Virus record (IMG/VR): IMGVR_UViG_2617270978_000023
Length of the DNA: 27,371 nt
Direction: 5' to 3' (one strand)
Source: a virus
Lineage: Duplodnaviria; Heunggongvirae; Uroviricota; Caudoviricetes
Below the pieces are notes generated by a model, which worked only from the letters and a program-made list of their open reading frames with translations, ran no database searches and was not told the DNA's origin. Shown piece by piece: positions 1 through 12,900 of this stretch. Position numbers and translations under genes: made by a program. Every line of letters begins with the position of its first letter. Positions within the stretch are counted from its first letter, which is position 1.

Positions 1-2397
1 ATGAAGGCTGAAATCAGCCGTAGAAGTCTGATGAAAACCTCCGCACTTGGCAGTCTTGCGCTGGCAAGCAGTGCTTTCACTCTGCCATTTTCCCAAATGG
101 TCCGGGCGGCAGAGGCTCCGGTAGAAGAGAAAGCGGTCTGGAGTTCCTGCACCGTTAACTGCGGGAGCCGCTGTCTGTTACGTTTGCATGTGAAAGATGA
201 CACCGTGTACTGGGTGGAGTCTGATACGACAGGTGACGACGTCTACGGTAATCATCAGGTTCGAGCGTGTTTACGCGGGCGCTCTATCCGCCGACGGATG
301 AATCATCCTGATAGGTTGAAATATCCCATGAAGCGCGTCGGCAAGCGCGGTGAAGGTAAATTTGAACGGATAAGTTGGGACGAAGCCCTGGATACCATCA
401 GTGATAATCTTCGGCGGATCCTGAAAGATTACGGCAATGAGGCTGTACATGTCCTGTACGGAACAGGCGTAGATGGCGGAAACATCACCAACTCAAACGT
501 CCCGTACCGTCTGATGAACTCTTGCGGTGGTTTTCTCAGTCGCTATGGCAGCTACAGTACCGCACAGATCAGTGCCGCAATGAGTTATATGTTCGGTGCC
601 AATGATGGCAACAGCCCGGATGATATCGCCAATACGAAACTGGTCGTTATGTTCGGAAATAACCCGGCAGAAACGCGGATGAGCGGCGGTGGTGTCACTT
701 ACTACGTCGAGCAAGCCCGCGAACGTTCAAACGCACGCATGATCGTCATCGATCCACGTTATAACGACACTGCTGCCGGGCGTGAAGATGAATGGCTGCC
801 CATTCGCCCTGGCACCGATGGCGCACTGGCCTGTGCGATTGCCTGGGTACTGATTACTGAAAACATGGTCGATCAGCCATTTCTCGACAAATATTGTGTT
901 GGTTACGATGAAAAAACGCTGCCCGCCAACGCACCACGTAACGCGCATTATAAAGCCTATATTCTGGGCGAAGGGCCTGACGGCATAGCTAAAACGCCGG
1001 AATGGGCAGCAAAAATCACCAGCATCCCGGCAGAAAAAATTATCCAGTTGGCACGAGAGATCGGTTCAGCAAAACCTGCTTATATTTGTCAGGGTTGGGG
1101 GCCACAACGACATTCCAACGGCGAGCAAACATCCCGCGCTATTGCCATGCTTTCCGTTCTCACCGGCAACGTCGGCATAAACGGCGGCAACTCAGGCGTA
1201 CGCGAAGGTAGCTGGGATCTGGGGGTAGAATGGTTCCCGATGCTCGAGAATCCTGTTAAAACGCAGATTTCCGTCTTTACATGGACAGATGCCATCGACC
1301 ATGGTACGGAAATGACCGCGACCCGTGATGGTGTTCGTGGAAAAGAAAAACTGGATGTCCCCATCAAGTTTTTATGGTGCTACGCCAGTAACACATTGAT
1401 CAATCAACATGGCGACATCAATCACACCCATGAGGTGCTTCAGGATGACAGCAAGTGCGAGATGATTGTTGGCATTGACCACTTCATGACGGCCTCGGCT
1501 AAGTATTGCGATATCCTGTTGCCCGACCTGATGCCAACAGAGCAAGAAGACCTTATCTCTCATGAATCTGCAGGGAATATGGGCTATGTGATCCTCGCCC
1601 AACCCGCAACCTCAGCAAAATTTGAACGCAAACCCATCTACTGGATGCTGAGTGAAGTCGCCAAACGCTTAGGACCAGACGTTTATCAAACCTTTACTGA
1701 AGGTCGCAGTCAGCATGAATGGATCAAATATCTCCATGCGAAAACGAAGGAACGTAACCCTGAGATGCCCGACTACGAGGAGATGAAAACGACCGGGATC
1801 TTTAAGAAAAAATGCCCGGAAGAACACTACGTCGCTTTCCGCGCATTCCGTGAAGATCCACAGGCAAACCCGTTGAAAACACCTTCGGGGAAAATCGAAA
1901 TTTATTCTGAACGACTGGCGAAGATTGCAGATACCTGGGAATTGAAAAAAGATGAAATTATTCATCCCCTTCCTGCGTATACCCCAGGTTTTGATGGCTG
2001 GGACGATCCCCTGCGGAAAACCTATCCACTGCAGTTAACGGGCTTCCATTACAAAGCGCGTACCCACTCCAGCTACGGCAATATTGATGTGTTACAGCAG
2101 GCCTGCCCACAAGAGGTGTGGATCAACCCCATTGATGCTCAGGCACGCGGTATCCGTCATGGCGATACCGTGCGGGTATTTAACAATAATGGAGAAATGC
2201 TGATTGCCGCAAAAGTGACTCCGCGTATTCTGCCTGGCGTTACCGCCATCGGGCAAGGTGCGTGGCTTAAAGCGGATATGTTTGGTGACCGGGTCGATCA
2301 CGGCGGCAGTATCAATATTCTGACCTCTCACCGCCCTTCACCGCTGGCAAAGGGAAACCCGTCGCACAGCAATCTTGTCCAGATCGAAAAGGTTTAA
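1..2397 (+). CDS. ynfF: DMSO reductase family molybdopterin oxidoreductase catalytic subunit (putative selenate/DMSO reductase); probably 5'-truncated by the window edge
   Basis: 798-aa ORF with a twin-arginine signal (SRRSLMK) and the Cys cluster CTVNCGSRC typical of the N-terminal Fe-S site of DmsA-type enzymes. It is followed 10 nt downstream by a dmsB/ynfG-type start with its own RBS. The native start probably lies a few codons upstream of position 1. Confidence 0.85.
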   Translation: MKAEISRRSLMKTSALGSLALASSAFTLPFSQMVRAAEAPVEEKAVWSSCTVNCGSRCLLRLHVKDDTVYWVESDTTGDDVYGNHQVRACLRGRSIRRRMNHPDRLKYPMKRVGKRGEGKFERISWDEALDTISDNLRRILKDYGNEAVHVLYGTGVDGGNITNSNVPYRLMNSCGGFLSRYGSYSTAQISAAMSYMFGANDGNSPDDIANTKLVVMFGNNPAETRMSGGGVTYYVEQARERSNARMIVIDPRYNDTAAGREDEWLPIRPGTDGALACAIAWVLITENMVDQPFLDKYCVGYDEKTLPANAPRNAHYKAYILGEGPDGIAKTPEWAAKITSIPAEKIIQLAREIGSAKPAYICQGWGPQRHSNGEQTSRAIAMLSVLTGNVGINGGNSGVREGSWDLGVEWFPMLENPVKTQISVFTWTDAIDHGTEMTATRDGVRGKEKLDVPIKFLWCYASNTLINQHGDINHTHEVLQDDSKCEMIVGIDHFMTASAKYCDILLPDLMPTEQEDLISHESAGNMGYVILAQPATSAKFERKPIYWMLSEVAKRLGPDVYQTFTEGRSQHEWIKYLHAKTKERNPEMPDYEEMKTTGIFKKKCPEEHYVAFRAFREDPQANPLKTPSGKIEIYSERLAKIADTWELKKDEIIHPLPAYTPGFDGWDDPLRKTYPLQLTGFHYKARTHSSYGNIDVLQQACPQEVWINPIDAQARGIRHGDTVRVFNNNGEMLIAAKVTPRILPGVTAIGQGAWLKADMFGDRVDHGGSINILTSHRPSPLAKGNPSHSNLVQIEKV

Positions 2398-2407
2398 GGA
2401 GTAGCCC

Positions 2408-2521
2408 ATGACCACACAATATGGATTTTTTATCGATTCCAGCCGCTGTACTGGCTGTAAAACCTGCGAACTGGCGTGCAAAGATTTTAAAGTTGGTTAC
2501 GTATCGTTTAAAATCAATTAG
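2408..2521 (+). pseudogene. ynfG: 5' fragment of the 4Fe-4S subunit gene ynfG, truncated after codon 28 by foreign DNA; the ORF now ends after 37 codons
   Basis: RBS aaggag then ATG. The product MTTQYGFFIDSSRCTGCKTCELACKDFK matches the recalled DmsB/YnfG N-terminus, then diverges into VGYVSFKIN-stop. Only the first CxxCxxC remains, so it cannot form a functional ferredoxin-type subunit. Confidence 0.75.
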
Positions 2522-2599: not shown

Positions 2600-2886
2600 G
2601 TGTCTCACTTTTGTCCCAATACCAATCCGAATCCACCCTTTGTCATCATTGAGAAATGGCAAGGAAGAAAAGGATGTTACTGCACGATTTGACAAATCCG
2701 CCAGAGCTATCGCATACTGATCGCACTGAACAAATAAGCGGTCTCCGCACCCGATAGCTTTGCGGCTTTTTTATGCCTGCAATTTGGCATAGTTACATCC
2801 GTACAAAGGTCGGGTGGAGAGGCGTAATACAACACCCGCAAGGGGAATATGCCCAGAGCTTCTTATTTGGCTCAGTTGACACCCGA

Positions 2887-2907
2887 CCGCCAGCTACTAA
2901 CTGGCGG
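2887..2907 (+). promoter_or_regulatory. Inverted repeat CCGCCAG-n7-CTGGCGG in the leader of the first antirepressor gene
   Basis: Read directly; lies 30 nt upstream of the ATG at 2937. Confidence 0.35.
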
Positions 2908-2936: not shown

Positions 2937-3221
2937 ATGACCAGTCAACTCATCCCCGTATTCAACGGTTCTATCTCAAACCAAGCAGCCCTTCTATGCA
3001 ATGCTCGCAATCTACACGCTTTCCTTGGGGTTGGTAAACGCTTTGCATCGTGGATAACAGAACGTATTGCTGAATATGGTTTCGTTGAAAATCAGGACTA
3101 TATGATTGCTTCCCAAATTCGGGAAGCAAAAGGTAGAGGCGGTCACAACCGCAAGGAATACCACCTCACCCTCGACACAGCCAAAGAGCTTGCGATGGTT
3201 GACGACTGCGTCCAATACTGA
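2937..3221 (+). CDS. AntA-domain antirepressor-like protein, short paralog (94 aa)
   Basis: Strong RBS aaggaggtcatcATG. The N-terminus MTSQLIPVFNGSIS...NARNLHAFLGVGKRFASWITERIAEYGFVENQDY fits the AntA/AntB antirepressor N-terminal signature. It shares leader and N-terminus with the downstream paralog. Confidence 0.6.
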   Translation: MTSQLIPVFNGSISNQAALLCNARNLHAFLGVGKRFASWITERIAEYGFVENQDYMIASQIREAKGRGGHNRKEYHLTLDTAKELAMVDDCVQY

Positions 3222-3421
3222 CTATACTCCGCGCCGAGGCCTCGAAAACCTCCCAAAAGCGGATTAAACCAACCCCGTCAGTGTTGGATTTTTTATGCCT
3301 GTTATTCAGTGATAGCACAGTGTGCGGTCACATCCCCGATCAATGTCGGGAGGGCGACGAATACAACACCCGCAAGGGGAATAAGTCCGCGGTATCTTTT
3401 GGGCCGTTTCGAGCCTCCCGG

Positions 3422-3438
3422 CACCACATCTTGTGGTG
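3422..3438 (+). promoter_or_regulatory. Inverted repeat CACCACA-tct-TGTGGTG in the leader of the second antirepressor gene
   Basis: Read directly; about 32 nt upstream of the ATG at 3471. Confidence 0.35.
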
Positions 3439-3470
3439 GCATTTCTCGAAAAAAGCCAAAGGAGGTCATC

Positions 3471-4100
3471 ATGACCACTCAACTCATCCCTGTGTTTGAA
3501 GGTACAATCTCAAATGAACCTACGCTTCTGGTGAACGCGCGTGATTTGCATGGATTTTTAGAGGTAGGTAAAGATTTTTCTAACTGGATACGGGCCAGGC
3601 TAAACGAGTATGGATTCGTAGAAAATTTAGACTACATTCTATTTTCGCCAAATTTGGCGAAAACTCCAGGCCGCCGCCGCAAGGATTACCACCTCACCCT
3701 CGACACAGCCAAAGAGCTTGCGATGGTTGAACGTAACGAAAAAGGTCGCCAGATCCGCCGCTACTTCATCGAGTGCGAAAAGAAACTTCGCAACATTCAG
3801 CCAGTACAAGCAGAACCACAGCCGCAATTCACAGCCGAGGAAATCATCCTCCTTTGCTACATGCAGCTCTGGATGGAAAAAGCCCAGGACCTTAGCAAGC
3901 AGCTGTACCCCATAATGAAAGAGCTGAACTCCTCATACACGAACAAGCTGTATGACATTGCGTTTGAGACTATCTACATGGTGACGAAGAACAGAGATGT
4001 GCTACTGAGAGAGGCGGCACGGCTTGACCAGTCGAGTTTCGTAGTTCAGCGGGCCAGACCAATGCTGAAAAGCCTGCGGGCAAGACAATTTGAATTCTGA
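3471..4100 (+). CDS. Phage antirepressor with N-terminal AntA/AntB domain (209 aa)
   Basis: Same RBS as the first paralog (aaggaggtcatcATG). The product starts MTTQLIPVFEGTIS, parallel to the paralog. The six-frame ORF extends to 3309, but the internal ATG with the RBS is preferred. Confidence 0.7.
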   Translation: MTTQLIPVFEGTISNEPTLLVNARDLHGFLEVGKDFSNWIRARLNEYGFVENLDYILFSPNLAKTPGRRRKDYHLTLDTAKELAMVERNEKGRQIRRYFIECEKKLRNIQPVQAEPQPQFTAEEIILLCYMQLWMEKAQDLSKQLYPIMKELNSSYTNKLYDIAFETIYMVTKNRDVLLREAARLDQSSFVVQRARPMLKSLRARQFEF

Positions 4101-4105
4101 TACCA

Positions 4106-4129
4106 AAGGAGCTTCGGCTCCTTTTTTTA
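4106..4129 (+). terminator. Rho-independent terminator after the antirepressor gene
   Basis: Stem GGAGC-ttcg-GCTCC followed by TTTTTTT, directly after the stop at 4100. Confidence 0.7.
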
Positions 4130-4296
4130 TACCTGAACGACAACGCCGCTGAAATCGAAGAGTTAATACAATAAAGAGAAGAGCTCAGTACATTAGATAA
4201 ACATTTTTTATCATTATCTCATTGCCTTTATTCAAAAAAATAGTTACATAACGTTACTAGGTAAAATGCAAACCCTCGCTATTTTTATCAGATTGT

Positions 4297-5523
4297 ATGC
4301 CGGTAACTATAACAAAAATCAGAACTGGAGAAGATGTTTTGTCAGCAGCCATTCACCGCATTGAATGGTTGTTTGAAACATTCTCTTCTGTATGTTTATC
4401 TTTTTCTGGCGGTAAAGATTCCACTGTACTTTTCCATCTTGTAGCCGAAGTGGCCTACAGGAAGAAACGTCGTTTTTCTGTATTGTTCATTGACTGGGAA
4501 GCCCAGTATCAATGCACCATTGATCATATACAGAAGATGCGGATGATGTACCAAGATGTAACAGATACCTTTTACTGGGTTGCACTTCCCCTGACGACAG
4601 TAAATGGTGTCTCGCAGTTTCAGCCTGAGTGGATATGCTGGGAGCCCGGTGTAGAGTGGGTTCGACAGCCACCGGAAGATGCTATTACTGATATGGCGTA
4701 TTTCCCCTTTTACCGCTACGCCATGACTTTTGAAGAATTTGTCCCAGCTTTTTCTTCCTGGTTCGCAAGTAACCAATGTAGCGTGGCAATACTGACTGGA
4801 GTCCGCGCGGATGAATCTCTTAACAGATTTATGGGACTGGTTTCCCAACGAAAACTGAGATATGCAGATGATAAACCCTGGACCACGGCGTCACCTGAAG
4901 GTTTTTACTACACCATGTATCCGCTGTATGACTGGAAAACCAACGATATCTGGGTATATAACGCTAAAACCTGTGCAATCTACAATCCTCTGTATGATTT
5001 GATGTACCGTGCAGGCATTCCTCTACGTAATATGCGTGTCTGTGAGCCTTTTGGCCCGGAACAGCGTAAGGGACTATGGCTTTATCATGTTCTGGAGCCA
5101 GAAACTTGGGCACGGATGTGTGAACGAGTATCTGGTGCTGCCAGTGGGGCTCTTTATGCCAATGAAAGCGGGGCCTATTTTGCCCTGCGTAAACGGATGT
5201 CAAAACCATCCCATCATACCTGGCGCAGCTATGCGTTCTTCCTGCTGGACGTAATGCCGGAAAGAACGGCTGAACACTACCGCAACAAGATAGCAGTTTA
5301 CCTGCGCTGGTATCAGAACCGGGGATTCCCGGATGATATCCCGGATGAACAGGAAAATGATCTGGGCTGCCGGGATGTTCCCTCCTGGCGACGTATTTGT
5401 AAGACTCTCATAAAGAATGATTTCTGGTGCCGAACGCTCTCCTTCAGCCCCAACAAACCCCGGCACTATGAACGTTACCTGCAGCGTATGAATGAAAGGA
5501 GGAAGGAATGGGGAATTCTGTGA
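4297..5523 (+). CDS. ibrA: PP-loop ATPase / PAPS-reductase-like (DndC-like) protein, IbrA-like (408 aa)
   Basis: PP-loop motif SFSGGKDS near the N-terminus. Length and pairing with a ParB-like gene match the recalled ibrA/ibrB pair. The start has no strong SD, so its position is uncertain. Confidence 0.65.
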   Translation: MPVTITKIRTGEDVLSAAIHRIEWLFETFSSVCLSFSGGKDSTVLFHLVAEVAYRKKRRFSVLFIDWEAQYQCTIDHIQKMRMMYQDVTDTFYWVALPLTTVNGVSQFQPEWICWEPGVEWVRQPPEDAITDMAYFPFYRYAMTFEEFVPAFSSWFASNQCSVAILTGVRADESLNRFMGLVSQRKLRYADDKPWTTASPEGFYYTMYPLYDWKTNDIWVYNAKTCAIYNPLYDLMYRAGIPLRNMRVCEPFGPEQRKGLWLYHVLEPETWARMCERVSGAASGALYANESGAYFALRKRMSKPSHHTWRSYAFFLLDVMPERTAEHYRNKIAVYLRWYQNRGFPDDIPDEQENDLGCRDVPSWRRICKTLIKNDFWCRTLSFSPNKPRHYERYLQRMNERRKEWGIL

Positions 5524-6152
5524 CACCAGAGGTGGAGGTGCTGAGCAAGATGATTCGACAGTACTTCAGTCAGGAACAATCTGAAGAGAAAACCATACAG
5601 GCCCTGAACCATCTCCGCTGCGTACTCCATGAGATCAGCCCCTTTGCTCAAGAACCAGTGGACTGTGTGCTGTGGGTAAAAGCGGATGAAATTGTCGCTA
5701 ACGATTATAATCCCAATGTCATGGCCCCAAGCGAAAAAAAATTACTGAAACAATCTCTGGAAAAAGACGGTTTTACTCAACCAATTGTTGTTTCGGAAAA
5801 AACAAGCCATTACCTGGTGGTGGATGGTTTTCATAGGCAGTTACTAGGTAGAAGAACAGTTACTGGAAAACGCCTGAAAGGCTGGCTACCAGTAACCTGT
5901 ATTAATCCAGACCGAAAGGGACAAACCTCACGTATTGCCGCGACTATCCGACATAACAGAGCCAGGGGGAAACACCAGATAACCTCAATGTCTGATATTG
6001 TCAGAGATCTTTCACGTCTTGGCTGGACTGATGAACGTATCGGAACAGAACTGGGGATGGACCAGGATGAAGTTCTGAGGTTAAAGCAGATTAGCGGGCT
6101 AACGGAGTTATTTCAGCAGGCAGATTTCAGCCCTGCATGGACTGTTACATAA
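5508..6152 (+). CDS. ibrB: ParB/sulfiredoxin-like nuclease-domain protein, IbrB-like (214 aa)
   Basis: ParB N-terminal-type motif VVDGFHRQ. The start overlaps the ibrA stop by 16 nt, with RBS aggagga upstream, suggesting translational coupling. Confidence 0.65.
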   Translation: MGNSVTPEVEVLSKMIRQYFSQEQSEEKTIQALNHLRCVLHEISPFAQEPVDCVLWVKADEIVANDYNPNVMAPSEKKLLKQSLEKDGFTQPIVVSEKTSHYLVVDGFHRQLLGRRTVTGKRLKGWLPVTCINPDRKGQTSRIAATIRHNRARGKHQITSMSDIVRDLSRLGWTDERIGTELGMDQDEVLRLKQISGLTELFQQADFSPAWTVT

Positions 6153-6240
6153 AGTTAGGTTAGGCCTGTGGAGCCGGGGAATCGGAATTAAACATCTTCC
6201 CTCCCCGGTAAATACAAATAAGGGCTGAACATCATCCCGA

Positions 6241-6765
6241 CTACCTCAGATCACCTAATAATATATCAAGATTATTTTGCGCATTAATGCTATTCGCCAT
6301 TACTGTTGCTGCTTCTGGCAACTTTCCAAGAGCAATAAATATATTCTTAAGGCTGATTGGAATTGATGAACCATGCGGATCGCGCCACTCACCGCAAATT
6401 CTGTGAGTTTCATCACAAAGCCTGAACGCATCCCAACCTCCATATTGACCAAAAATTATGTCCATTGACTCTATTTCTGCGGGCGATAACTCCCCCAGCT
6501 CATCAACAGAAGAAAATGTACGCCACATTTCAACCTTATGATCCGCTACATCAGATATCCATGATTCCCACGGACTGTACTCGTTTTCACTTCCATCCTT
6601 AACCAAAGAATATGTCTGCGATAAAACGGGTCCTTTGTTCATAGAGAAATAATGATCACCACTAATGGGAAAACCATACAACTCCATTGCTTTGCGGTCA
6701 GAGAGATACATCAGCTTAATGAAACGCATAGATCCGCCATGTTTTTTCAGCAAATACGCTGCCAT
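6241..6765 (-). CDS. DUF4065 / Panacea-domain-like protein (SocA/GepA-type; candidate antitoxin) (174 aa)
   Basis: The N-terminal pattern IKLMYLSDRKAMELYGFPISGDHYFSMNKGPVLSQTY resembles the recalled DUF4065 signature (LKLQKLLYY...G.P....GPV..Y). It sits 150 nt downstream of the giant ORF on the same strand. Confidence 0.45.
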   Translation of the reverse strand: MAAYLLKKHGGSMRFIKLMYLSDRKAMELYGFPISGDHYFSMNKGPVLSQTYSLVKDGSENEYSPWESWISDVADHKVEMWRTFSSVDELGELSPAEIESMDIIFGQYGGWDAFRLCDETHRICGEWRDPHGSSIPISLKNIFIALGKLPEAATVMANSINAQNNLDILLGDLR

Positions 6766-6915: not shown

Positions 6916-9900
6916 TTAATCCACTCCCACTTTTTTGTTGTACTCGCGGTTAAAGCGATCCACGGCAACCTTCATATCCCGCTCTACCGATTTCACCATC
7001 GCCGCCTGCTGCGCCAGACTGAGAGAACTGTCGGCATAAATGGCATCGCGCTGTTTGCGCAAATCCTTCAGTCTCTTCCGGGTATCCTGCATAAGCCCGT
7101 TCATCAACAATTTTCCGTTGTTCTCGTCAATGAACGCCGTTCTTTCTGCACCGGTCAGACTCTTCAGCTCTGCGTGATACTGCGCAACCTCTGTCATCCG
7201 GTCGTACATCTTCTGCTGGTCTGCATACGGCATCACCTCACCCGAAATTTTCCCCAGGAAGGGCACCTGCTGCTCCGGTATATCAATACCGTTCAGCGAT
7301 TTCACCGCCGCATCTGTGGTTTTGGAAATGAAGCGCCCTGTCCCTCCGGAGATATAGTCAATCCAGAATTTCAGCGATTCCGGTGTGATATCCACCGCGC
7401 CGGGACGATACTGGCTGCCACCTGAGAACGCATTCAGCCAGGATGCAAACGCCTTGTACGCCTCAGGCGTTGAACGTCTGCCCAGTTGGCTGTCCGGTTT
7501 CGGTGTGCCAAATGGCATGTTCTCCTGGTAAATCTGCGCCCCCATGAAGTTTTCATTCATGGCAAGGTTCGCAAACGGACGCAGAATGGTCGGCGCTGCA
7601 TTTTTCAGCAATGCCCCGGACAGTGTTTCCGACGTTTCACTGCCCACAGGACTGAATGCCCCCAGGATACCACCGACAACATTACCGGCAGCACGTGAAG
7701 CAGTCAGGTCGCCCGCTGCCACACCTTCAGCAGTATGCCCGAGCAGGAAGAAAACGTTGTACCCGTAAGGCAGAGGAATACTCCAGTACTCTCCGGCCTT
7801 GCCCCCGAACACCGATTTCATAATGACGAGGTTACGCTCTTTCACATGAGACGGCACCTTGTCATACCAGTTAACCCCGTCATCATCCTCCCCCGCAACA
7901 CTGCGGTTAAGCGAGCCAAGCAGATAACCCGCTCCCACAGCTGCAAGCGCGATTTTCTGCGGTACATTGAGATTCTTCCAGCGAAGGCGCTCCGGTAACG
8001 GCCCGTCGCCATTAAGATGTCCGAGCGTTCTCACCAGGTTTGCGGTCCCCTGAATGCTGGCGTTGGCAAACATATACAGCGAGTTCATCAGCGCTCCCTG
8101 CTCACCACGACGGTTAAAGTTCACCGTCATGTTTTTGGCAAGAGATGCCGCCTGCTGGCGTGACAAACCGGCATCACGGGCGTGTTTATAGGCAGAAAGA
8201 CGCAGAGCGTTTTCAACCGCGCCGTTGGCATCCTCGACCAGGTTCAGGAACGAATGCCATGCACCGATACTCTGGCCTTTCCATCCTCCCTTCGCCAGCG
8301 ATACAAGGCGATCCATTTCCTTCTGCTGGCCTTCAAGGTCACCCATGTTAAACCAGCCGGTTTTACCTCCATCCTCAACAAACTCTTTCCACACCTTCTG
8401 CCACTGCGCACCGTTGCCCGTGAGGGTTTTACCACGCAGACTGGCGTATACGGCAGACATGGCAGACCGGCTGTCTTTCACCACAGCCAGGGCGGATAAG
8501 TTATCCAGCACTTTCAGTTTACCGTCGCTCCTTCCCTGCTCAGCCTTCAGGTTCATCACCGCCGTCTGCACGTCACGGATGAAGTTACTGACCAGAAATT
8601 CCGGGTTATACGACGTGTTCACCGTTGCCAGGAAACGGTTAACTTTCCCCAGCGTACGGATTACGGCGTTACTGGTTTCCGGCCCCATGTTCTTCATCGC
8701 ACGCATCAGGCGCGGGTCATGGAGTTTGATGTAGTAAGTTTTGCCGTCCTTTTTGGTGGTGAAGTAGCGATCCGCCATCATTGCCATAGGCACCGGACGT
8801 TCAACAACTTCGCGACGGGTTTCGCCGGTTTCCGGATCAACACGCTCTGCAATCGCCCGCATGGTGTCCGGTTTGTCATCAGTGAATACCTGCCAGTAAT
8901 CCTTATCGGGATTATCCTGCACCAGTTTCAGGAAGGCGTTACCCACTTCGTTTTTGCGATTGCGGATCAGCGATTCGCTCAAATCCTGTATCGCCTGAGT
9001 GGAAGGAGACTGTGCGCGGGATGCACGCCCCATGGCCTGCCTGCTTTCACGTCCGCCGATGGTGAAGCCCTTACCTGTACGGGGCAGTGACACCACACCG
9101 TCAACATCCTGACCTTTCAGGGGAACGTAGTAACGGTAGGCGTTCTGCCAGGCATCCACCACACCGCTCTCTTCCAGTCCGGCCTCACGGATAAGCTCAC
9201 GGCGACGGGCCAGCATATCGTCAACAATCCCTGCCAGACGGTCATACTGTGCCTGTTTGCCACTGTTACGCACACGCTGCATGATTTCCGCCGCTTCCGC
9301 GTTGGTCATCCCCGAACCGCCGTCCGGCATTTTCGGGTTGATTTTCGCGATATGCGCGTTACGTTCCGGCGCGTGACGGGCGTAGAGGTACTCATCCAGA
9401 TCGGCCTGCGCAATTTTGTAGTCCGCCAGTAATTTAGCCAGTGGCTGAACGTAGCGCTCCTTCATCACGTTCAGGTCGTTTTCCGCCTTCCCGTGGAAGA
9501 GTTCTTCCGCCATATAAGCGTTGTTACTGTCGTCTATTTTTCCGCCAGTTTTACGGATATTCTCCTGAACAGCTTTCAGCACCTGGAATTTATCCTGCAT
9601 CTGGCGCACAAAACGCGATGCAATTGTCTCTTCCGGTGTCAGACTGCTGGTACGGGAGTAATACGGCCCCTTGCGAATATCTTCAGGATAGAGTATTTTA
9701 TCTACAGAGCCGCGATAAGAACGCTCCTCTTTGGGCAATTGGAGCCCACTGTACTGAGGGTTATCGCGGCTTAATTTCTCCTTCCGGTAAAGCGTTAATC
9801 CAGCCATTTCCATACTTTTCAGCTTTTTCCCGTTTTCCGTACCGTAAACAGATGCCACCTTGTTAATTTCCAGACGTTTATCTGTCGCCTTCATATGCAC

Positions 9901-12900
9901 TGCCGAGACGACCGGATCACCATTTTTATCCACAGCATCAAGCAGCATCACAACCGCATTTCTTTCTGTCGCGGAACGGTAAATTGCATCCGGATTGTGC
10001 ATCAGTTCCGGAAGTCTCTCGATAACATCCATTGGCACCACATGTTTCACGCCATTGGTAGCCTTCCGCACAGTGTCGCGGGAGATAACCAGCGGCAAAT
10101 CTGGTGCGCCAAGGTGGCGCAATACCGGCGGCGTACGCCCGATGTTTGCAGTCATTGCACCAGAACGTAACGACTTCATCATTCTGGCAAGGTCATCACG
10201 ATAACGCTCGCCCTCACCTTCCGGCACTTTGAACGGATCAGGCTTACCGCTACGGGAGTACTGAGACGATGCGCCAGCGCCATCCTCACGCGGCGTGTAA
10301 CCTTCCCGCACACGCTGGCCTAACGTGCGAATAGTTTCGCGAACAAGTCTGATATCGTTCAGCTCTGTCGGCTTCAGTAACCCCGTGCGACGCAGTACCC
10401 CTTTGACCAGGGCAACAACACGCTCCCACGCCGCCACAAATTTATTCGGCTGTTTCTCCGCCATATGTGCCAGAAATTCACCTGCCTGCACTTCCGGTGA
10501 TTCCTTACCATAAGACGCATCAACCTTACGCCAGGCGTCACGGATGGTGGCGTTATCACTGTCACGGGTTTTCAGTACGGTCTTAATAATCGTCTGATAT
10601 TCCGCTGGCGTGACTACATGCTCCATTGCATGGTGGATAATCTCGTGACGCAGCTTCTCGCGAACGGTCCGCCCGTCAGGAATGTTATCCGCCACCAGGA
10701 CAATTTCACGTTTATCCGGACGATAGAACGCATGCACCCTGCCGTAACCGTCGAACGATTCCCCCGCCAGCGCTTCAGCCTCTTTCTGTGACTTCACCAC
10801 GCGGACCTTCAGGTCACTGTCCTTAATGCCACTCATCACGCCACGGGCAACCGCTTCAACCTGCGGGACCGGGCTGCCTTTGGCTTCCGCACTGCGGTTA
10901 ACATCCGAAATGAGATTGCCTTCAGGTGTGCGGGTCACGCCCTTACGGGAATAAAACGCAACGCCCTTGTCCGTCTTACGGGTTTTCAGCGTACTGAACA
11001 GGTGATCGAATGCATCACGAATACCGCCATCCAGTTCCGCATTCGTCGGATAAGCCCAGGTGTTATCTGTGTTGTGCTCAGGTGCCTTACGGATATTGAC
11101 CAGATAATCATTCTCCACGCCAGCCGTACGCGCTTTATCCTGAACATAACGCTCAAAGGCACGCGCCGCCATTTCAACATCCGTTGACCAGTACGGTTTT
11201 GAGCGCACCTCATCGAGAAGCGCTGAACGACGCGGCATGTCACTGCTGTTGATCGCTTTCATCACGCCTTTAAACGCGTCGTAAACCTCCTGACGTACCG
11301 GATATTCCGCATAAACATATCTGCCGTCTTTAAATACGCGCCCGGCACGCTGTGCTTCCGTCATATAGTCGCCACCTGACGTGATCTTCCCGTCAGTGGA
11401 AACATCATAACGACCAAAATAATTATCCAGTGAATGGAACCATTCGTGGGCCAGCGCCCCCGGTCCGTTACCTTTTGTCAGGTTGATTGCCACCTCACCC
11501 GGCTCATAGTGTGCCGCCGCCTTACCCTTACCACGGGCACCAAAAGCAAGCCCAAGACGACCGTTCAGAGAAAGCGCTTTTGTCGGCACGTTCAGCACAT
11601 CAGCCAGGTCATGCAGCGAGTCATAAGCCCGGTTCAAATCAGCCTGACGACGCGGACCTTCCACATAATTACCAAACTGCACACCACGAAAACCAAACGC
11701 ATCGCTGAACTGCTTCGGTGAGACATCACCCTTGCGGCGTTCTGGCCCGGTACGATCGCGGTTGGTGGCGTTACGCTGCTCCTCACGGGAAATCTCACGC
11801 ATCTCCTTCACATGACGAACAAGCTCATCACGATGTGAATCAATGTACTTACGCGCATCACTGGCTGACTTAAAGCCACCTCTCACCCGCATTTTGTTTT
11901 TGCCGTAAGCAATAAAAATATCGCCACTGCGGGTATTCCGGTATACGTCAAAGCTGATTTTGTCATCCGGTGACGGTGCTGTTTTTTCATCACCTTTCGC
12001 CTGTGATTTTTCCTCCTGCTCTGCAAACCAGGCTTTTGCCTTTGTCAGTAATTCATCCCTGCTTTCCGAGAAAAAGAGATTGCTCCCCTTATTGTCCTTA
12101 TTGCGCAGTGAATAAAGTTTCCGTGGCGGATCGTAACGTTTCCCTCCTGCCGCCTGATACACACCGGATACCACCCGATAAGCAGAAGCCTTGTCTATCT
12201 GCGAGGGTGGCAGCGTGCGTAACAGTTGCCATGTGTCCGCGTAACGGGCGGGCATTCTGCCTTCCATCCACTCAGCAAGCCGTCCGGCAGTCACTTTTCC
12301 TTCCAGCATTCCCGCCACACTTGTGCGGATGCTCTTTACACTCTCCACCCACTTCACTGCATTGAGTTTCGTCTTCGCCGGAATATCGCTACGATACAGC
12401 GCTATCATTGCCAGGGTATCAGCATCGGCACCTTCGTTCGCCAGTTTTGCGTAGTCCGGTTTCGGGAACACTTTGCTCAGCGGCTGCGTGAAATAATCCC
12501 TGTCTTCCAGCGTTTTACCCAGTGTTTCGGCAAGCTGTGCATAACGGTGTTTTGCCGCGCCCTTAATCTCCTCGCCAAAGTCTTCAATTTTTGCACCACG
12601 CGCCTGCTGGTGAGTGCTCGGTTTATCTACCGGCACCGGCACCTCAGTATCCGGAACATCGGTTATGGTCTGGCGATTATCCCCGGTCTGTCTGCGTGCT
12701 TCTGCCTGCTGTGCCAGTTCCGGAAGGGAGTCACGAACCATACGAGGGAGTGATTCAGGATGTGGCATATCAACCCCACGCTGTTCAGGTGCAGGAAGTC
12801 CTTCACGCACTGGTGCTGTGGCGTTCTGCTCATCCGGTGACGGCAGACCACGACGAACCGGTTCGCTCTCCAGTATTTCCCCCTGGCGACCAGCGGCATT

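What the first reader, a model, noticed from the sequence alone, without database searches (positions are those of the whole stretch)
4297..6152. Overlapping PP-loop/PAPS-reductase-like and ParB-like gene pair (ibrAB-like)
A 408-aa protein with a canonical SGGKDS PP-loop is translationally coupled to a 214-aa ParB-N-domain protein (DGFHR). This domain pairing parallels DndC-like and DndB-like components of DNA sulfur-modification systems, and matches the ibrA/ibrB pair known as regulators of Eib immunoglobulin-binding proteins. An Eib-like autotransporter is encoded about 19 kb away in the same element. The mechanism of such pairs is poorly defined; a role in DNA modification or phage defence is an inference only.
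Basis: partly seen in the sequence, partly recalled or inferred. Interest (0 to 1): 0.75.

Follow-up and report, generated by a model that had tools for sequence, protein, structure and literature searches.

The report
Known ibrAB prophage gene pair
This is a real, overlapping two-gene unit of the already named ibrA/ibrB family, an ATP-using PP-loop enzyme plus a shortened ParB-like DNA-binding protein, at the end of an E. coli prophage. The family is common and already annotated, but its biochemistry is still unknown.

Summary
ORFs 4297-5523 (408 aa, SGGKDS) and 5508-6152 (214 aa, DGFHR) overlap by 16 nt, and a strong Shine-Dalgarno sequence lies inside the first gene. Profiles confirm PAPS_reduct+DUF3440 and a ParB-N/HTH protein.

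The DNA is 99.8-99.9% identical to E. coli prophages and to phage PhiR5_2, where the genes are annotated IbrA/IbrB. Related alleles occur in 1930 of 5426 complete E. coli genomes. K-12 ybdN/ybdM are 57%/61% identical paralogues. So the pair is already known.

New constraints:
- The two genes are adjacent in all 115 related loci that have room to show it, from Proteobacteria to Actinomycetota, CPR and an Asgard archaeon, including lytic phages.
- Both genes are under strong purifying selection (dN/dS about 0.06).
- IbrA keeps the ATP-type PP-loop and the PAPS-reductase-fold core but has no conserved cysteine. It is therefore neither a CysH-type reductase nor a DndC-type Fe-S sulfurtransferase.
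- IbrB is a ParB N-domain plus HTH, without GERR and without a C-terminal dimerisation domain.
- Neighbouring genes are DNA-centred (replication, nin region, terminase).

Best guess: IbrB targets DNA for ATP-dependent adenylyl-transfer chemistry by IbrA, and activation of the eib-like gene is a consequence. This is inferred, not shown.

The parts
4105..4124 (+). Intrinsic terminator (8-bp stem, T-run) ending the upstream antirepressor gene. It sets ibrAB apart as its own transcription unit.
   Evidence: terminator scan; sequence AAAGGAGCTTCGGCTCCTTTTTTTTAT
4125..4296 (+). AT-rich (33% GC) upstream region with no consensus sigma-70 promoter. It is not homologous to the upstream regions of other ibrAB alleles.
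4297..5523 (+). ibrA: 408-aa PP-loop ATP-pyrophosphatase-fold protein (COG3969; PAPS_reduct + DUF3440).
4405..4422 (+). PP-loop SGGKDS (aa 37-42), 92-98% conserved across 78 diverse family members.
4297..5013 (+). N-terminal PAPS-reductase/FAD-synthase-like alpha/beta domain (aa 1-239, pI 5.3). Conserved residues: D66, E68, G168xR170xxE173-S174xxR177, D212-W213, D217, Y233.
5014..5520 (+). [not shown]
5497..5523 (+). Coupling junction: Shine-Dalgarno AGGAGG (5497-5502), ibrB ATG (5508), ibrA TGA (5521-5523), 16-nt overlap. The junction is conserved in island alleles.
5508..6152 (+). ibrB: 214-aa shortened ParB-like protein (N-terminal helices, ParB/Srx N-domain, HTH). It has no C-terminal dimerisation domain.
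5658..5975 (+). ParB/Srx-type N-domain (aa 51-156, pI 10.0). Motifs: NDYNPN, DGFTQPIVV, VVDGFHR (in place of ParB GERR; nt 5823-5837) and TIRHNRARGKH (in place of ENLQRE).
5976..6107 (+). ParB-type helix-turn-helix (WTDERIGTELGMDQDEVLRLKQISGL), collinear with the HTH of Noc.
   Evidence: (helices 161-195)
24510..25613 (-). eib-like trimeric autotransporter (YadA anchor, EibD-like segment). Candidate regulatory target in the same prophage, by analogy with the published ibrAB phenotype.

Best explanation
Identity (near certain): this is a member of the ibrA/ibrB family. It is an autonomous, translationally coupled two-gene module in the att-proximal accessory region of a 933W-like short-tailed E. 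coli prophage, inserted next to ynfF. The same prophage also carries an eib-like adhesin.

Mechanism (inferred, about 35-40%):
- IbrB is the DNA-targeting subunit. It has a ParB/Srx-type nucleotide-binding N-domain followed by a ParB-type HTH.
- IbrA is an active ATP pyrophosphatase/adenylyltransferase. It has an ATP-type PP-loop on a PAPS-reductase/CysD/FAD-synthase fold, and a basic helical DUF3440 domain suited to binding a nucleic-acid polymer.
- Made in fixed proportion from overlapping genes, the two proteins act together on DNA. IbrA uses ATP to adenylylate, and so activate or covalently modify, a group on IbrB-bound DNA.
- The chemistry is sulfur- and thiol-independent. It is not PAPS reduction and not Dnd-type phosphorothioation.
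- The one published phenotype, higher expression of otherwise silent prophage eib genes, would then be a downstream effect of the altered DNA on silencing or repression.

Shown here: the gene anatomy, the domain and fold assignments, the conserved catalytic motifs, the absence of any conserved cysteine, obligate pairing, purifying selection and the DNA-centred genomic contexts.

Inferred: physical complex formation, DNA as the substrate, adenylyl transfer as the reaction, and the link to eib expression in this prophage.
For: Anatomy and coupling:
- 16-nt overlap with an internal AGGAGG, conserved at dS of about 1.
- dN/dS is 0.057-0.073 for ibrA and 0.054-0.055 for ibrB.

Obligate pairing:
- IbrB lies next to IbrA on the same strand in 38 of 38 viral loci and 77 of 77 genome loci that have room to show it. 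These span many phyla and include an Asgard MAG.
- The homologous block shared between E. coli contexts is just the two ORFs.

IbrA is an enzyme of the ATP-using branch:
- SGGKDS, D66/E68, GxRxxESxxR, DW...D.W and YN..YD are 85-100% conserved in 78 members at 31-58% identity.
- The N-terminus matches CysD, TilS and PP-loop models.
- No cysteine is conserved above 49%, and there is no co-varying Cys set.
- The DUF3440 half has pI 9.5.

IbrB:
- The profile matches ParB, Noc and Spo0J N-domains.
- It is collinear with Noc through the HTH.
- The N-domain has pI 10.0.

DNA-centred contexts:
- SNF2 or SF2 helicase, Prim-Pol or a DNA pol III alpha-UDG fusion lies next to the pair.
- NinG lies nearby.
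- A terminase gene lies directly downstream in L042, L026 and lytic mycobacteriophage Athena, whose gp4-gp5 are family members.
- Helicase genes lie directly upstream of IbrA-IbrB in Streptococcus phage PY1.

Precedent: ParB/Srx proteins partner DNA-modifying enzymes (DndB, DpdB).
Against: - No modified base or backbone has been tied to these genes, and none was testable here.
- No donor-supplying third gene is conserved.
- The only experimental phenotype is regulatory (Sandt et al. 2002, as cited in PMC7649339). A pure transcription-factor model could explain it.
- The IbrB structure prediction failed (pLDDT 48), so its nucleotide pocket is inferred from motifs alone.
- No A-B fusion proteins were found among 150 representatives, so complex formation is unproven.
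- A syntenic, H-NS/CitR-silenced copy (ybdNM) sits in the core genome of Enterobacteriaceae. That is unusual for a phage DNA-modification system.
- E. coli strains carrying these genes have been methylome-sequenced often without a reported novel mark (my own knowledge, not checked).
Confidence: 0.38

Rival explanations
1. IbrB is a nucleotide-gated ParB-like transcription activator or anti-silencer, working like Shigella VirB or plasmid KorB. It would bind or spread on DNA and relieve H-NS-type silencing of AT-rich prophage genes such as eib. IbrA would be an accessory enzyme that controls IbrB or its nucleotide ligand, and DNA would not be chemically modified.
For: - The published phenotype is activation of eib expression (Sandt 2002 as cited; the paper is not held).
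- IbrB has a ParB N-domain plus HTH collinear with the CTP-binding protein Noc.
- The eib-like gene and its roughly 800-nt upstream region are AT-rich: 35-39% GC against about 52% for the prophage.
- In K-12, derepressing ybdNM by deleting citR coincides with up-regulation of the nearby cit genes and of the flagellar and cys regulons.
- ibrB is co-induced with perC in STEC on epithelial cells.
Against: - ParB's GERR is replaced by DGFHR and ENLQRE by RHNRAR.
- The protein ends about 20 aa after the HTH. It lacks the C-terminal dimerisation domain that closes ParB/VirB clamps (clamp requirement from my own knowledge).
- A fully conserved catalytic partner is kept everywhere, including lytic phages and replication or packaging modules with no silenced morons to activate.
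- No motif is shared between the ibrA and eib upstream regions beyond chance: three 10-mers, none of 11.
- Upstream regions are not conserved between alleles.
Confidence: 0.3
2. A minimal Dnd/Ssp-like DNA phosphorothioation (sulfur) system, with IbrA playing DndC/SspD and IbrB playing DndB.
For: - The superfamily pairing is the same: PP-loop PAPS-reductase-like plus ParB/Srx.
- There are weak hits to DndC (TIGR03183 E=0.0012; PADLOC DndC E=4.5e-5) and to BrxP (E=1.6e-7).
Against: - The DndC score is 17.8 bits against a cutoff of 290.4.
- No cysteine is conserved in the family, whereas DndC Cys280 is indispensable for its 4Fe-4S cluster.
- No DndD, DndE or cysteine desulfurase is found in the window, and no third gene family recurs among the neighbours of the 80 genome loci.
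- IbrB gives no hit to any DndB model at E<=0.01.
Confidence: 0.04
3. An auxiliary metabolic gene: a true PAPS/APS reductase or sulfotransferase that boosts host sulfur assimilation, as the PGAP name 'phosphoadenosine phosphosulfate reductase' implies.
For: - Pfam PAPS_reduct match.
- PGAP and PHROG names.
- Fold match to APS/PAPS reductases.
- The cys regulon goes up when ybdNM is derepressed in K-12.
Against: - No conserved cysteine, so the thiol nucleophile of CysH-type enzymes (C-terminal ECGLH motif, my own knowledge) is absent.
- NCBIfam CysH/PAPS-reductase scores are 25-33 bits against cutoffs of 154-254.
- The PP-loop is the ATP type, as in CysD, TilS and DndC.
- An obligate DNA-binding ParB partner and DNA-metabolism neighbours make no sense for sulfate assimilation.
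Confidence: 0.03
4. A phage DNA packaging or replication accessory factor. For example, IbrB could act as a terminase-small-subunit-like recognition protein with IbrA as its ATP-using helper. The E. coli island and prophage copies would then be leftovers.
For: - The pair sits immediately upstream of the large terminase in mycobacteriophage Athena (gp4-gp5-gp6).
- It sits upstream of the small terminase in L042 and near terS/terL in L026.
- It lies inside replication modules in L107, L109 and Streptococcus phage PY1.
Against: - In this window the pair is at the att-proximal accessory end, more than 15 kb past the tail genes and far from any packaging gene.
- It is kept under purifying selection in non-phage islands of O157:H7 and ST131.
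- It is also kept as syntenic chromosomal ybdNM, where no packaging occurs.
Confidence: 0.08
5. An anti-phage defence system, or a phage counter-defence (anti-restriction) module carried as a prophage moron.
For: - It lies in a variable prophage end beside an orphan Panacea/SocA antitoxin-domain gene and a 2787-aa polyvalent protein.
- It is carried on phages, islands and plasmids.
- PP-loop plus ParB/Srx proteins recur in BREX type 4, Dnd and Dpd systems.
Against: - There is no match to any of the 5027 PADLOC models beyond the weak BrxP/DndC hits, and none at all for IbrB.
- No nuclease or effector partner is conserved.
- The syntenic core-genome copy across enterobacterial genera is atypical for defence genes.
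- The pair is present in lytic phages.
- A counter-defence role through self-modification of phage DNA is not excluded, and it overlaps with the best explanation.
Confidence: 0.1

Closest known systems
IbrA/IbrB of E. coli ECOR-9 (Sandt, Hopper & Hill 2002, J Bacteriol 184:3640) and their island and prophage homologues
   Same: - Overlapping ibrA-ibrB gene order and the same domain pair.
- The window DNA is 99.8% identical to phage PhiR5_2 genes annotated IbrA/IbrB.
- The proteins are 90-91% and 86-87% identical to the O157:H7 and ST131 island copies.
- It is associated with eib-type adhesin prophages.
   Different: - Here the pair and an eib-like gene sit in one inducible-type prophage, about 19 kb apart. 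In ECOR-9 the pair lies on a separate island (my recollection of the paper, which is not held).
- Identity to the ECOR-9 proteins themselves was not measured.
YbdN/YbdM of E. coli K-12 (b0602/b0601)
   Same: - 57% and 61% protein identity over the full length.
- Same order, with a 28-nt overlap.
- Function uncharacterised.
   Different: - Chromosomal and syntenic across Enterobacteriaceae, next to citR(ybdO), dsbG, ahpCF and ybdL.
- Repressed by CitR, while the adjacent citR gene is H-NS-regulated.
- Not on a mobile element.
DndB/DndC (and SspD) of DNA phosphorothioation systems
   Same: A PP-loop PAPS-reductase-like ATP pyrophosphatase paired with a ParB/Srx-superfamily protein carrying a DGxHR-type motif. 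Both are DNA-directed.
   Different: - No Fe-S cysteines.
- No DndA/IscS-DndD-DndE partners.
- Model scores are far below the cutoffs.
ParB-family CTP switches (ParB/Spo0J, Noc, KorB, VirB)
   Same: The N-domain motifs (NPxxP-like box, QPI(V/L)V, GxxR) and a following HTH are collinear with Noc and ParB.
   Different: - DGFHR replaces GERR and RHNRAR replaces ENLQRE.
- There is no C-terminal dimerisation domain, and no ParA or parS.
- Pfam ParB_N scores below its gathering score.
CysD / FAD synthase (PAPS-reductase-like adenylyltransferases)
   Different: - IbrA carries the extra basic DUF3440 domain.
- It has an obligate DNA-binding partner.
- It has no CysN partner and no FMN-related context.
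Phage lambda NinC
   Same: A PAPS-reductase-family protein of unknown function in a phage early (nin) region. IbrAB sits beside NinG in locus L036.
   Different: As far as I know, NinC has no adjacent ParB-like partner. The two sequences were not compared here.
DpdA/DpdB 7-deazaguanine DNA modification
   Same: A ParB-like NTPase (DpdB) assists a DNA-modifying enzyme. PP-loop enzymes (QueC-type) belong to the same pathway.

Membership tests
ibrAB family (COG3969/DUF3440 protein + IbrB-like ParB protein) | First protein has PAPS_reduct + DUF3440 domains above the curated cutoffs | tested here: met
   Pfam 61.3 bits (cutoff 22.5) and 114.8 bits (cutoff 25). phrog_2302 289.8 bits.
ibrAB family (COG3969/DUF3440 protein + IbrB-like ParB protein) | Second gene immediately downstream on the same strand, overlapping, encoding an IbrB-type ParB-N/HTH protein | tested here: met
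   16-nt overlap. phrog_2159 306 bits. PGAP name 'IbrB-like domain-containing protein' on identical DNA. The pair is conserved in 115 of 115 loci with room.
ibrAB family (COG3969/DUF3440 protein + IbrB-like ParB protein) | High identity to genes that public records call IbrA/IbrB | tested here: met
   99.8% DNA identity and 100% IbrA protein identity to PhiR5_2 IbrA/IbrB.
ibrAB family (COG3969/DUF3440 protein + IbrB-like ParB protein) | Identity to the founding ECOR-9 IbrA/IbrB sequences | not tested
ibrAB family (COG3969/DUF3440 protein + IbrB-like ParB protein) | Raises expression of prophage eib genes | not testable with these tools
   Only co-location with an eib-like gene could be shown.
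PAPS/APS reductase (CysH) | PAPS-reductase alpha/beta fold | tested here: met
   [not shown]
PAPS/APS reductase (CysH) | Conserved catalytic cysteine (and Fe-S cysteines in APS reductases) | tested here: not met
   No Cys is conserved above 49% in 78 family members, and there is no co-varying Cys set.
PAPS/APS reductase (CysH) | Score above the NCBIfam equivalog cutoffs | tested here: not met
   NF002537 32.9 bits (cutoff 154); TIGR02057 31.2 bits (cutoff 254.2); TIGR00434 24.7 bits (cutoff 165.1).
DndC / Dnd phosphorothioation system | DndC equivalog score | tested here: not met
   TIGR03183 17.8 bits (cutoff 290.4). PADLOC DndC 20.6 bits.
DndC / Dnd phosphorothioation system | 4Fe-4S-binding cysteines (for example C280) | tested here: not met
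   No conserved cysteines. The requirement is stated in PMC11662687.
DndC / Dnd phosphorothioation system | DndD, DndE and a cysteine desulfurase encoded alongside | tested here: not met
   The window neighbours are antirepressor and Panacea genes. No third gene family recurs among the neighbours of the 80 genome loci.
DndB | Match to DndB/DGQHR models | tested here: not met
   The only NCBIfam hit for IbrB is nucleoid_noc at 23 bits. There is no DndB hit at E<=0.01 and no PADLOC hit. The DGFHR motif resembles DGQHR only as a short motif.
ParB (partition/CTP-clamp) family | ParB N-terminal domain | tested here: inconclusive
   Pfam ParB_N scores 19 bits, below the 26.3 cutoff. The family profile hits ParB 4umk at E=3.4e-6, plus Noc and Spo0J. 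This supports superfamily membership, not family membership.
ParB (partition/CTP-clamp) family | GERR and ENLQRE nucleotide-binding/catalytic motifs | tested here: not met
   The aligned positions read DGFHR and RHNRAR. Only the last Arg and the Asn are kept.
ParB (partition/CTP-clamp) family | C-terminal dimerisation domain and a ParA/parS partner | tested here: not met
   The protein ends about 20 aa after the HTH when aligned with Noc. No ParA gene lies nearby.
N-type (PP-loop) ATP pyrophosphatase superfamily | SGGxDS PP-loop on a Rossmann-like fold | tested here: met
   [not shown]
Known anti-phage defence systems (PADLOC v2) | Match to a defence-system protein model | tested here: not met
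   Only weak BrxP (28 bits) and DndC hits for IbrA, and none for IbrB.

The most novel reading that the evidence does not exclude
IbrA/IbrB, together with K-12 YbdN/YbdM and the homologues in lytic phages, could be a two-protein machine that installs a DNA modification not yet described. The modification would be sulfur-independent and initiated by adenylylation, and it would be targeted by a shortened ParB-like protein. If so, a new epigenetic or anti-restriction mark is widespread in phages and lies latent in the core genome of Enterobacteriaceae. The activation of silenced virulence genes such as eib would be its read-out.
Probability: 0.2. Interest if true: 0.8.

Novelty: already known. 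Interest (0 to 1): 0.3.

Why it matters
The find itself is ordinary. The same genes are in public records under the names IbrA/IbrB, about a third of complete E. coli genomes carry a close allele, and K-12 has paralogues.

What remains open is the biochemistry. No activity has been assigned in the 20-plus years since the genetic description, and the automatic name 'PAPS reductase' is almost certainly wrong.

The constraints assembled here turn 'function unknown' into a short list of cheap experiments on a tractable E. coli phage (PhiR5_2) and on ybdNM:
- obligate pairing across domains of life;
- an intact ATP-type active site with no cysteine;
- a ParB-like partner lacking the clamp features;
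- DNA-centred neighbourhoods, including lytic phages.

If the pair controls eib-type adhesins, it also bears on serum resistance and adherence of LEE-negative STEC and of extra-intestinal strains.

Tried and rejected
- **Literature.** Ten full-text searches found no mechanistic study of IbrAB, YbdNM, DUF3440 or COG3969. The founding paper is not held.
- **Solved structures by sequence.** No close relative of either protein.
- **AF2 of IbrB.** It failed with a 38-sequence alignment at 74-91% identity (pLDDT 48), so no fold search was run on it. The afdb50 library was unavailable.
- **Natural IbrA-IbrB fusions.** None among 150 family representatives. Two apparent hits are short chimeric fragments, and the long proteins carry insertions. 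The apparent fusion in L029 is a frame artefact of a GC-rich contig.
- **A shared IbrB site.** The ibrA and eib upstream regions share only three 10-mers and no 11-mer, about background. Upstream regions of four alleles do not align. Short inverted repeats in 4000-6300 are unremarkable.
- **A conserved metal site in DUF3440.** C249, C368 and C378 are each present in 41-49% of members but do not co-occur.
- **A conserved third gene.** There is none family-wide. Lineage-specific neighbours exist: SNF2 helicase, a small ORF between A and B, and homing endonucleases.
- **Defence-system membership.** Rejected.
Full report
**1.

- The six-frame ORF list gives exactly 4297..5523 (+, 408 aa) and 5508..6152 (+, 214 aa).
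- SGGKDS is residues 37-42 of the first protein. DGFHR is residues 106-110 of the second.
- The genes overlap by 16 nt. A strong Shine-Dalgarno sequence (AGGAGG, 5497-5502) lies inside the end of the first gene, 5 nt before the second ATG.
- An intrinsic terminator at 4105-4124 closes the upstream antirepressor gene. The 172 nt before ibrA are 33% GC and have no consensus sigma-70 promoter.
- Pfam scores the first protein well above cutoff for PAPS_reduct (61.3 bits) and DUF3440 (114.8 bits).
- The second protein reaches only 19 bits on ParB_N (cutoff 26.3). It scores 306 bits on the PHROG 'ParB-like' family 2159. A 23-sequence family profile hits solved ParB, Noc and Spo0J N-domains, best E=3.4e-6.

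**2. Where it sits**

- The window starts in the chromosomal gene ynfF (1-2397; molybdopterin oxidoreductase domains) and then enters the end of a prophage.
- Gene order after ynfF: two antA/antB antirepressor genes, ibrA, ibrB, a convergent SocA/Panacea-domain gene, a 2787-aa polyvalent protein (LPD5, LPD1, MuF_C, LPD38), lom, tail-fibre genes, and a YadA-anchor adhesin at 24510-25613.
- The adhesin has a segment matching EibD.
- The ibrAB DNA is 99.8-99.9% identical to 19 complete E. coli genomes and to phage PhiR5_2, whose record annotates the genes as IbrA and IbrB.

**3. It is already known and common**

- 1930 of 5426 complete E. coli genomes hold a match, mostly at about 84% nucleotide identity. 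66 places are on plasmids.
- In O157:H7 and ST131 these alleles sit as isolated two-gene units in IS-littered islands.
- Homology between contexts begins and ends at the two ORFs, and the upstream regions do not align. The mobile unit is therefore just the gene pair.
- Against those island alleles, dN/dS is 0.057-0.073 for ibrA and 0.054-0.055 for ibrB, at dS of 0.84-1.36. The overlap junction is preserved.
- E. coli K-12 has chromosomal paralogues ybdN/ybdM. They are 57% and 61% identical to the window proteins and overlap by 28 nt.
- The ybdNM locus is syntenic across enterobacterial genera, next to citR(ybdO), dsbG, ahpF and ybdL.
- The only papers found on these paralogues report that CitR represses ybdNM and that 'YbdM is completely uncharacterized'.
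- Ten literature searches found no mechanistic work. The 2002 paper that named ibrAB as activators of eib expression is not in the held library.

**4. The pairing is obligate and ancient**

- The IbrA family has 317 clusters (at 50% identity) with E<=1e-30.
- An IbrB homologue lies next to IbrA on the same strand in 38 of 38 viral-contig loci and 77 of 77 genome loci that have enough flanking sequence.
- These loci span Proteobacteria, Bacillota, Actinomycetota, Bacteroidota, Planctomycetota, Lentisphaeria, CPR lineages and an Asgard MAG. IbrA identity runs down to 28%.
- No third gene is conserved family-wide.
- No A-B fusion was seen among 150 representatives.

**5. What IbrA is and is not**

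- In 78 full-length members at 31-58% identity, these motifs are 85-100% conserved: the PP-loop SGGKDS, D66/E68, G168-x-R170-x-x-E173-S174-x-x-R177, D212-W213...D217-x-W219 and Y229-N230-x-x-Y233-D234. IbrA is therefore a working enzyme.
- No cysteine is conserved above 49%, and the partly conserved ones do not co-occur.
  - This removes the thiol nucleophile of CysH-type reductases (my own knowledge of the ECGLH motif).
  - It also removes the Fe-S ligands that DndC requires (Cys280).
- NCBIfam scores are an order of magnitude below the cutoffs for CysH, CysD and DndC.
- The full SGGKDS loop is the ATP-binding form shared with CysD, TilS and DndC. The likely chemistry is attack on the alpha-phosphate of ATP, giving adenylyl transfer with release of pyrophosphate.

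**6. What IbrB is and is not**

- The family alignment shows invariant NDYNPN, DG(Y/F)TQP(I/V)V, VVDGFHR and TIRHNRARGKH, and a C-terminal ELGMxxDEVLRLKQ helix-turn-helix.
- The alignment to ParB puts NDYNPN on ParB's NPYQPR box, QPIVV on QPVLV and DGFHR on GERR.
- The alignment to Noc continues through RHNRAR (on ENLQRE) and the HTH.
- IbrB is therefore a ParB/Srx N-domain plus a ParB-type HTH, with two differences from clamp-forming ParB proteins:
  - its nucleotide-pocket motifs are altered;
  - it ends about 20 residues after the HTH, so it has no C-terminal dimerisation domain.
- The DGxHR form of the motif is the one seen in enzymatic or regulatory ParB/Srx members such as DndB (my own knowledge). 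However, no DndB model is hit.
- The structure prediction for IbrB failed (pLDDT 48). These points therefore rest on sequence alone.

**7. Context says DNA**

Outside E. coli the pair lies in the following settings:
- beside SNF2 or SF2 helicases, a primase-polymerase, or a DNA pol III alpha-UDG fusion;
- beside NinG;
- followed by arrays of homing endonucleases;
- directly upstream of terminase genes (L042 and L026).

Among cultured phages, 220 records encode an IbrA relative. They include Flavobacterium, Streptococcus, Arthrobacter and cluster-B Mycobacterium phages.

In mycobacteriophage Athena, gp4 and gp5 are bona fide family members (E=1.7e-57 and 2.2e-41 against the family profiles). 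They sit immediately before the large terminase.

In Streptococcus phage PY1 the order is helicase-IbrA-IbrB.

The function is therefore not confined to lysogens or to silenced accessory genes.

**8. Link to eib**

- The eib-like adhesin family of this window occurs in only 49 of 5426 genomes, with a median of 3 copies per genome.
- All 19 genomes with the >=99% ibrAB allele are among those 49.
- In several of them one copy lies 19-21 kb from ibrAB, as it does here. This physical linkage explains the co-occurrence, so it is not independent evidence of regulation.
- The eib-like gene and its roughly 800-nt upstream region are AT-rich (35-39% GC), as expected for a silenced horizontally acquired gene.
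- No motif is shared with the ibrA upstream region beyond background.

**9. Most likely mechanism and rivals**

*Best explanation (confidence about 0.38).* IbrB targets DNA and IbrA performs ATP-dependent adenylyl-transfer chemistry on it. This is a sulfur-independent covalent activation or modification. Gene activation is a consequence.

It accounts for:
- the universally conserved active site;
- the obligate DNA-binding partner;
- the basic extra domain;
- the DNA-metabolism neighbourhoods, including lytic phages;
- the precedent of ParB/Srx proteins assisting DNA-modifying enzymes (DndB, DpdB).

Its weaknesses are that no modification is known, that no donor gene is conserved, and that the only phenotype is regulatory.

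*Main rival (about 0.30).* IbrB is a VirB/KorB-like nucleotide-gated activator or anti-silencer, with IbrA as an accessory enzyme. This fits the genetics and the AT-rich target. It fits poorly with the missing clamp features and with the pair's presence in lytic phages.

*Other rivals.*

| Rival | Confidence | Main objection |
|---|---|---|
| Dnd-like phosphorothioation | 0.04 | Contradicted by the cysteine and cutoff tests |
| True PAPS reductase | 0.03 | Contradicted by the cysteine and cutoff tests |
| Packaging or replication accessory | 0.08 | Does not explain island and chromosomal copies |
| Defence or counter-defence | 0.10 | No PADLOC support; overlaps with the best explanation if the modification protects phage DNA |

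**10. Verdict**

- The finding is real and correctly identified. It is an already known, widely annotated gene pair.
- Interest is modest (0.3). Its value lies in the unresolved biochemistry of a very widespread, strictly paired module and in the misleading 'PAPS reductase' label. The presence of the pair in this window is not itself of interest.

Noticed in passing
window 2808-2896 (+) and 3345-3430 (+): There are two copies of the Rfam family sRNA-Xcc1 (RF02221; 69 and 73 bits, gathering score 53). Each lies just upstream of an antA/antB antirepressor ORF (2937-3221 and about 3471-4100). This looks like a conserved structured leader or sRNA tied to antirepressor genes. The long GTG-start ORF 3309-4100 probably starts at Met55 (3471) instead.
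   Followed up: partly
window 6241-6765 (-) and 6916-15279 (-): An orphan SocA/Panacea antitoxin-domain gene (70.7 bits) lies directly downstream of a 2787-aa polyvalent protein gene (LPD5, LPD1, MuF_C, LPD38). No toxin partner is evident, and only 88 nt separate it from ibrB. It may neutralise a toxic domain of the polyvalent protein.
   Followed up: no
window 1-2500: The prophage end abuts ynfF. In strain UPEC-245U, PGAP annotates a truncated 4Fe-4S protein fragment (ynfG) at the junction, so the phage integrates into ynfG.
   Followed up: partly
window 24510-26409 (-): The eib-like YadA-anchor adhesin has an AT-rich upstream region of about 800 nt. The family occurs in only 49 of 5426 complete E. 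coli genomes but at a median of 3 copies per genome. All 19 genomes with this ibrAB allele are among them. The adhesin passenger domain is mosaic between strains: only the first 290-630 nt of the plus-strand query, which correspond to the gene's 3' membrane-anchor end, are shared.
   Followed up: partly
L125 (E. coli K-12 NC_000913.3 634747-636569): ybdM/ybdN are 61%/57% identical paralogues of IbrB/IbrA with a 28-nt overlap. A published citR(ybdO) deletion derepresses them, and the flagellar, cys and cit genes rise at the same time (PMC9068703). Whether that depends on YbdNM has not been tested.
   Followed up: partly
L020, L022, L024, L031, L032, L034 (metagenomic phage contigs), just downstream of ibrB: One to three homing endonuclease genes (NUMOD3-HNH or LAGLIDADG) are stacked immediately after ibrB in several unrelated phage contigs. 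The ibrAB 3' end appears to be a preferred landing site.
   Followed up: partly
L126 (Mycobacterium phage Athena 1-5236): The left genome end reads ParB-like gp1, two small genes, IbrA-like gp4, IbrB-like gp5, then the large terminase gp6, which overlaps gp5. IbrB occupies the slot where a small terminase subunit would normally be.
   Followed up: partly
L095 8167-8592, L101 1772-2215; L094, L095, L115, L119, L120 upstream genes: One sub-lineage has a small extra ORF between ibrA and ibrB (141-147 aa, 36% identical between L095 and L101, no Pfam match). Five loci, L095 among them, have an SNF2-type helicase gene directly upstream of ibrA.
   Followed up: partly
L107 2493-5816; L109 8179-12152: In a CPR (WWE3) contig the pair follows a DNA polymerase III alpha-uracil-DNA-glycosylase fusion. 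In a Flavobacterium contig it precedes an SF2 helicase and a primase-polymerase. In these loci and three others (L090, L098, L106) the gene order is reversed (B then A), and the ORF carrying the IbrB domain is longer (about 230-440 aa).
   Followed up: no
window 17990-18900 (by comparison with L002 34471-34611): On the near-identical prophage of UPEC-245U, PGAP annotates a Hok/Gef toxin gene and a 'bacteriocin' gene between the polyvalent-protein region and lom. These were not examined in the window.
   Followed up: no
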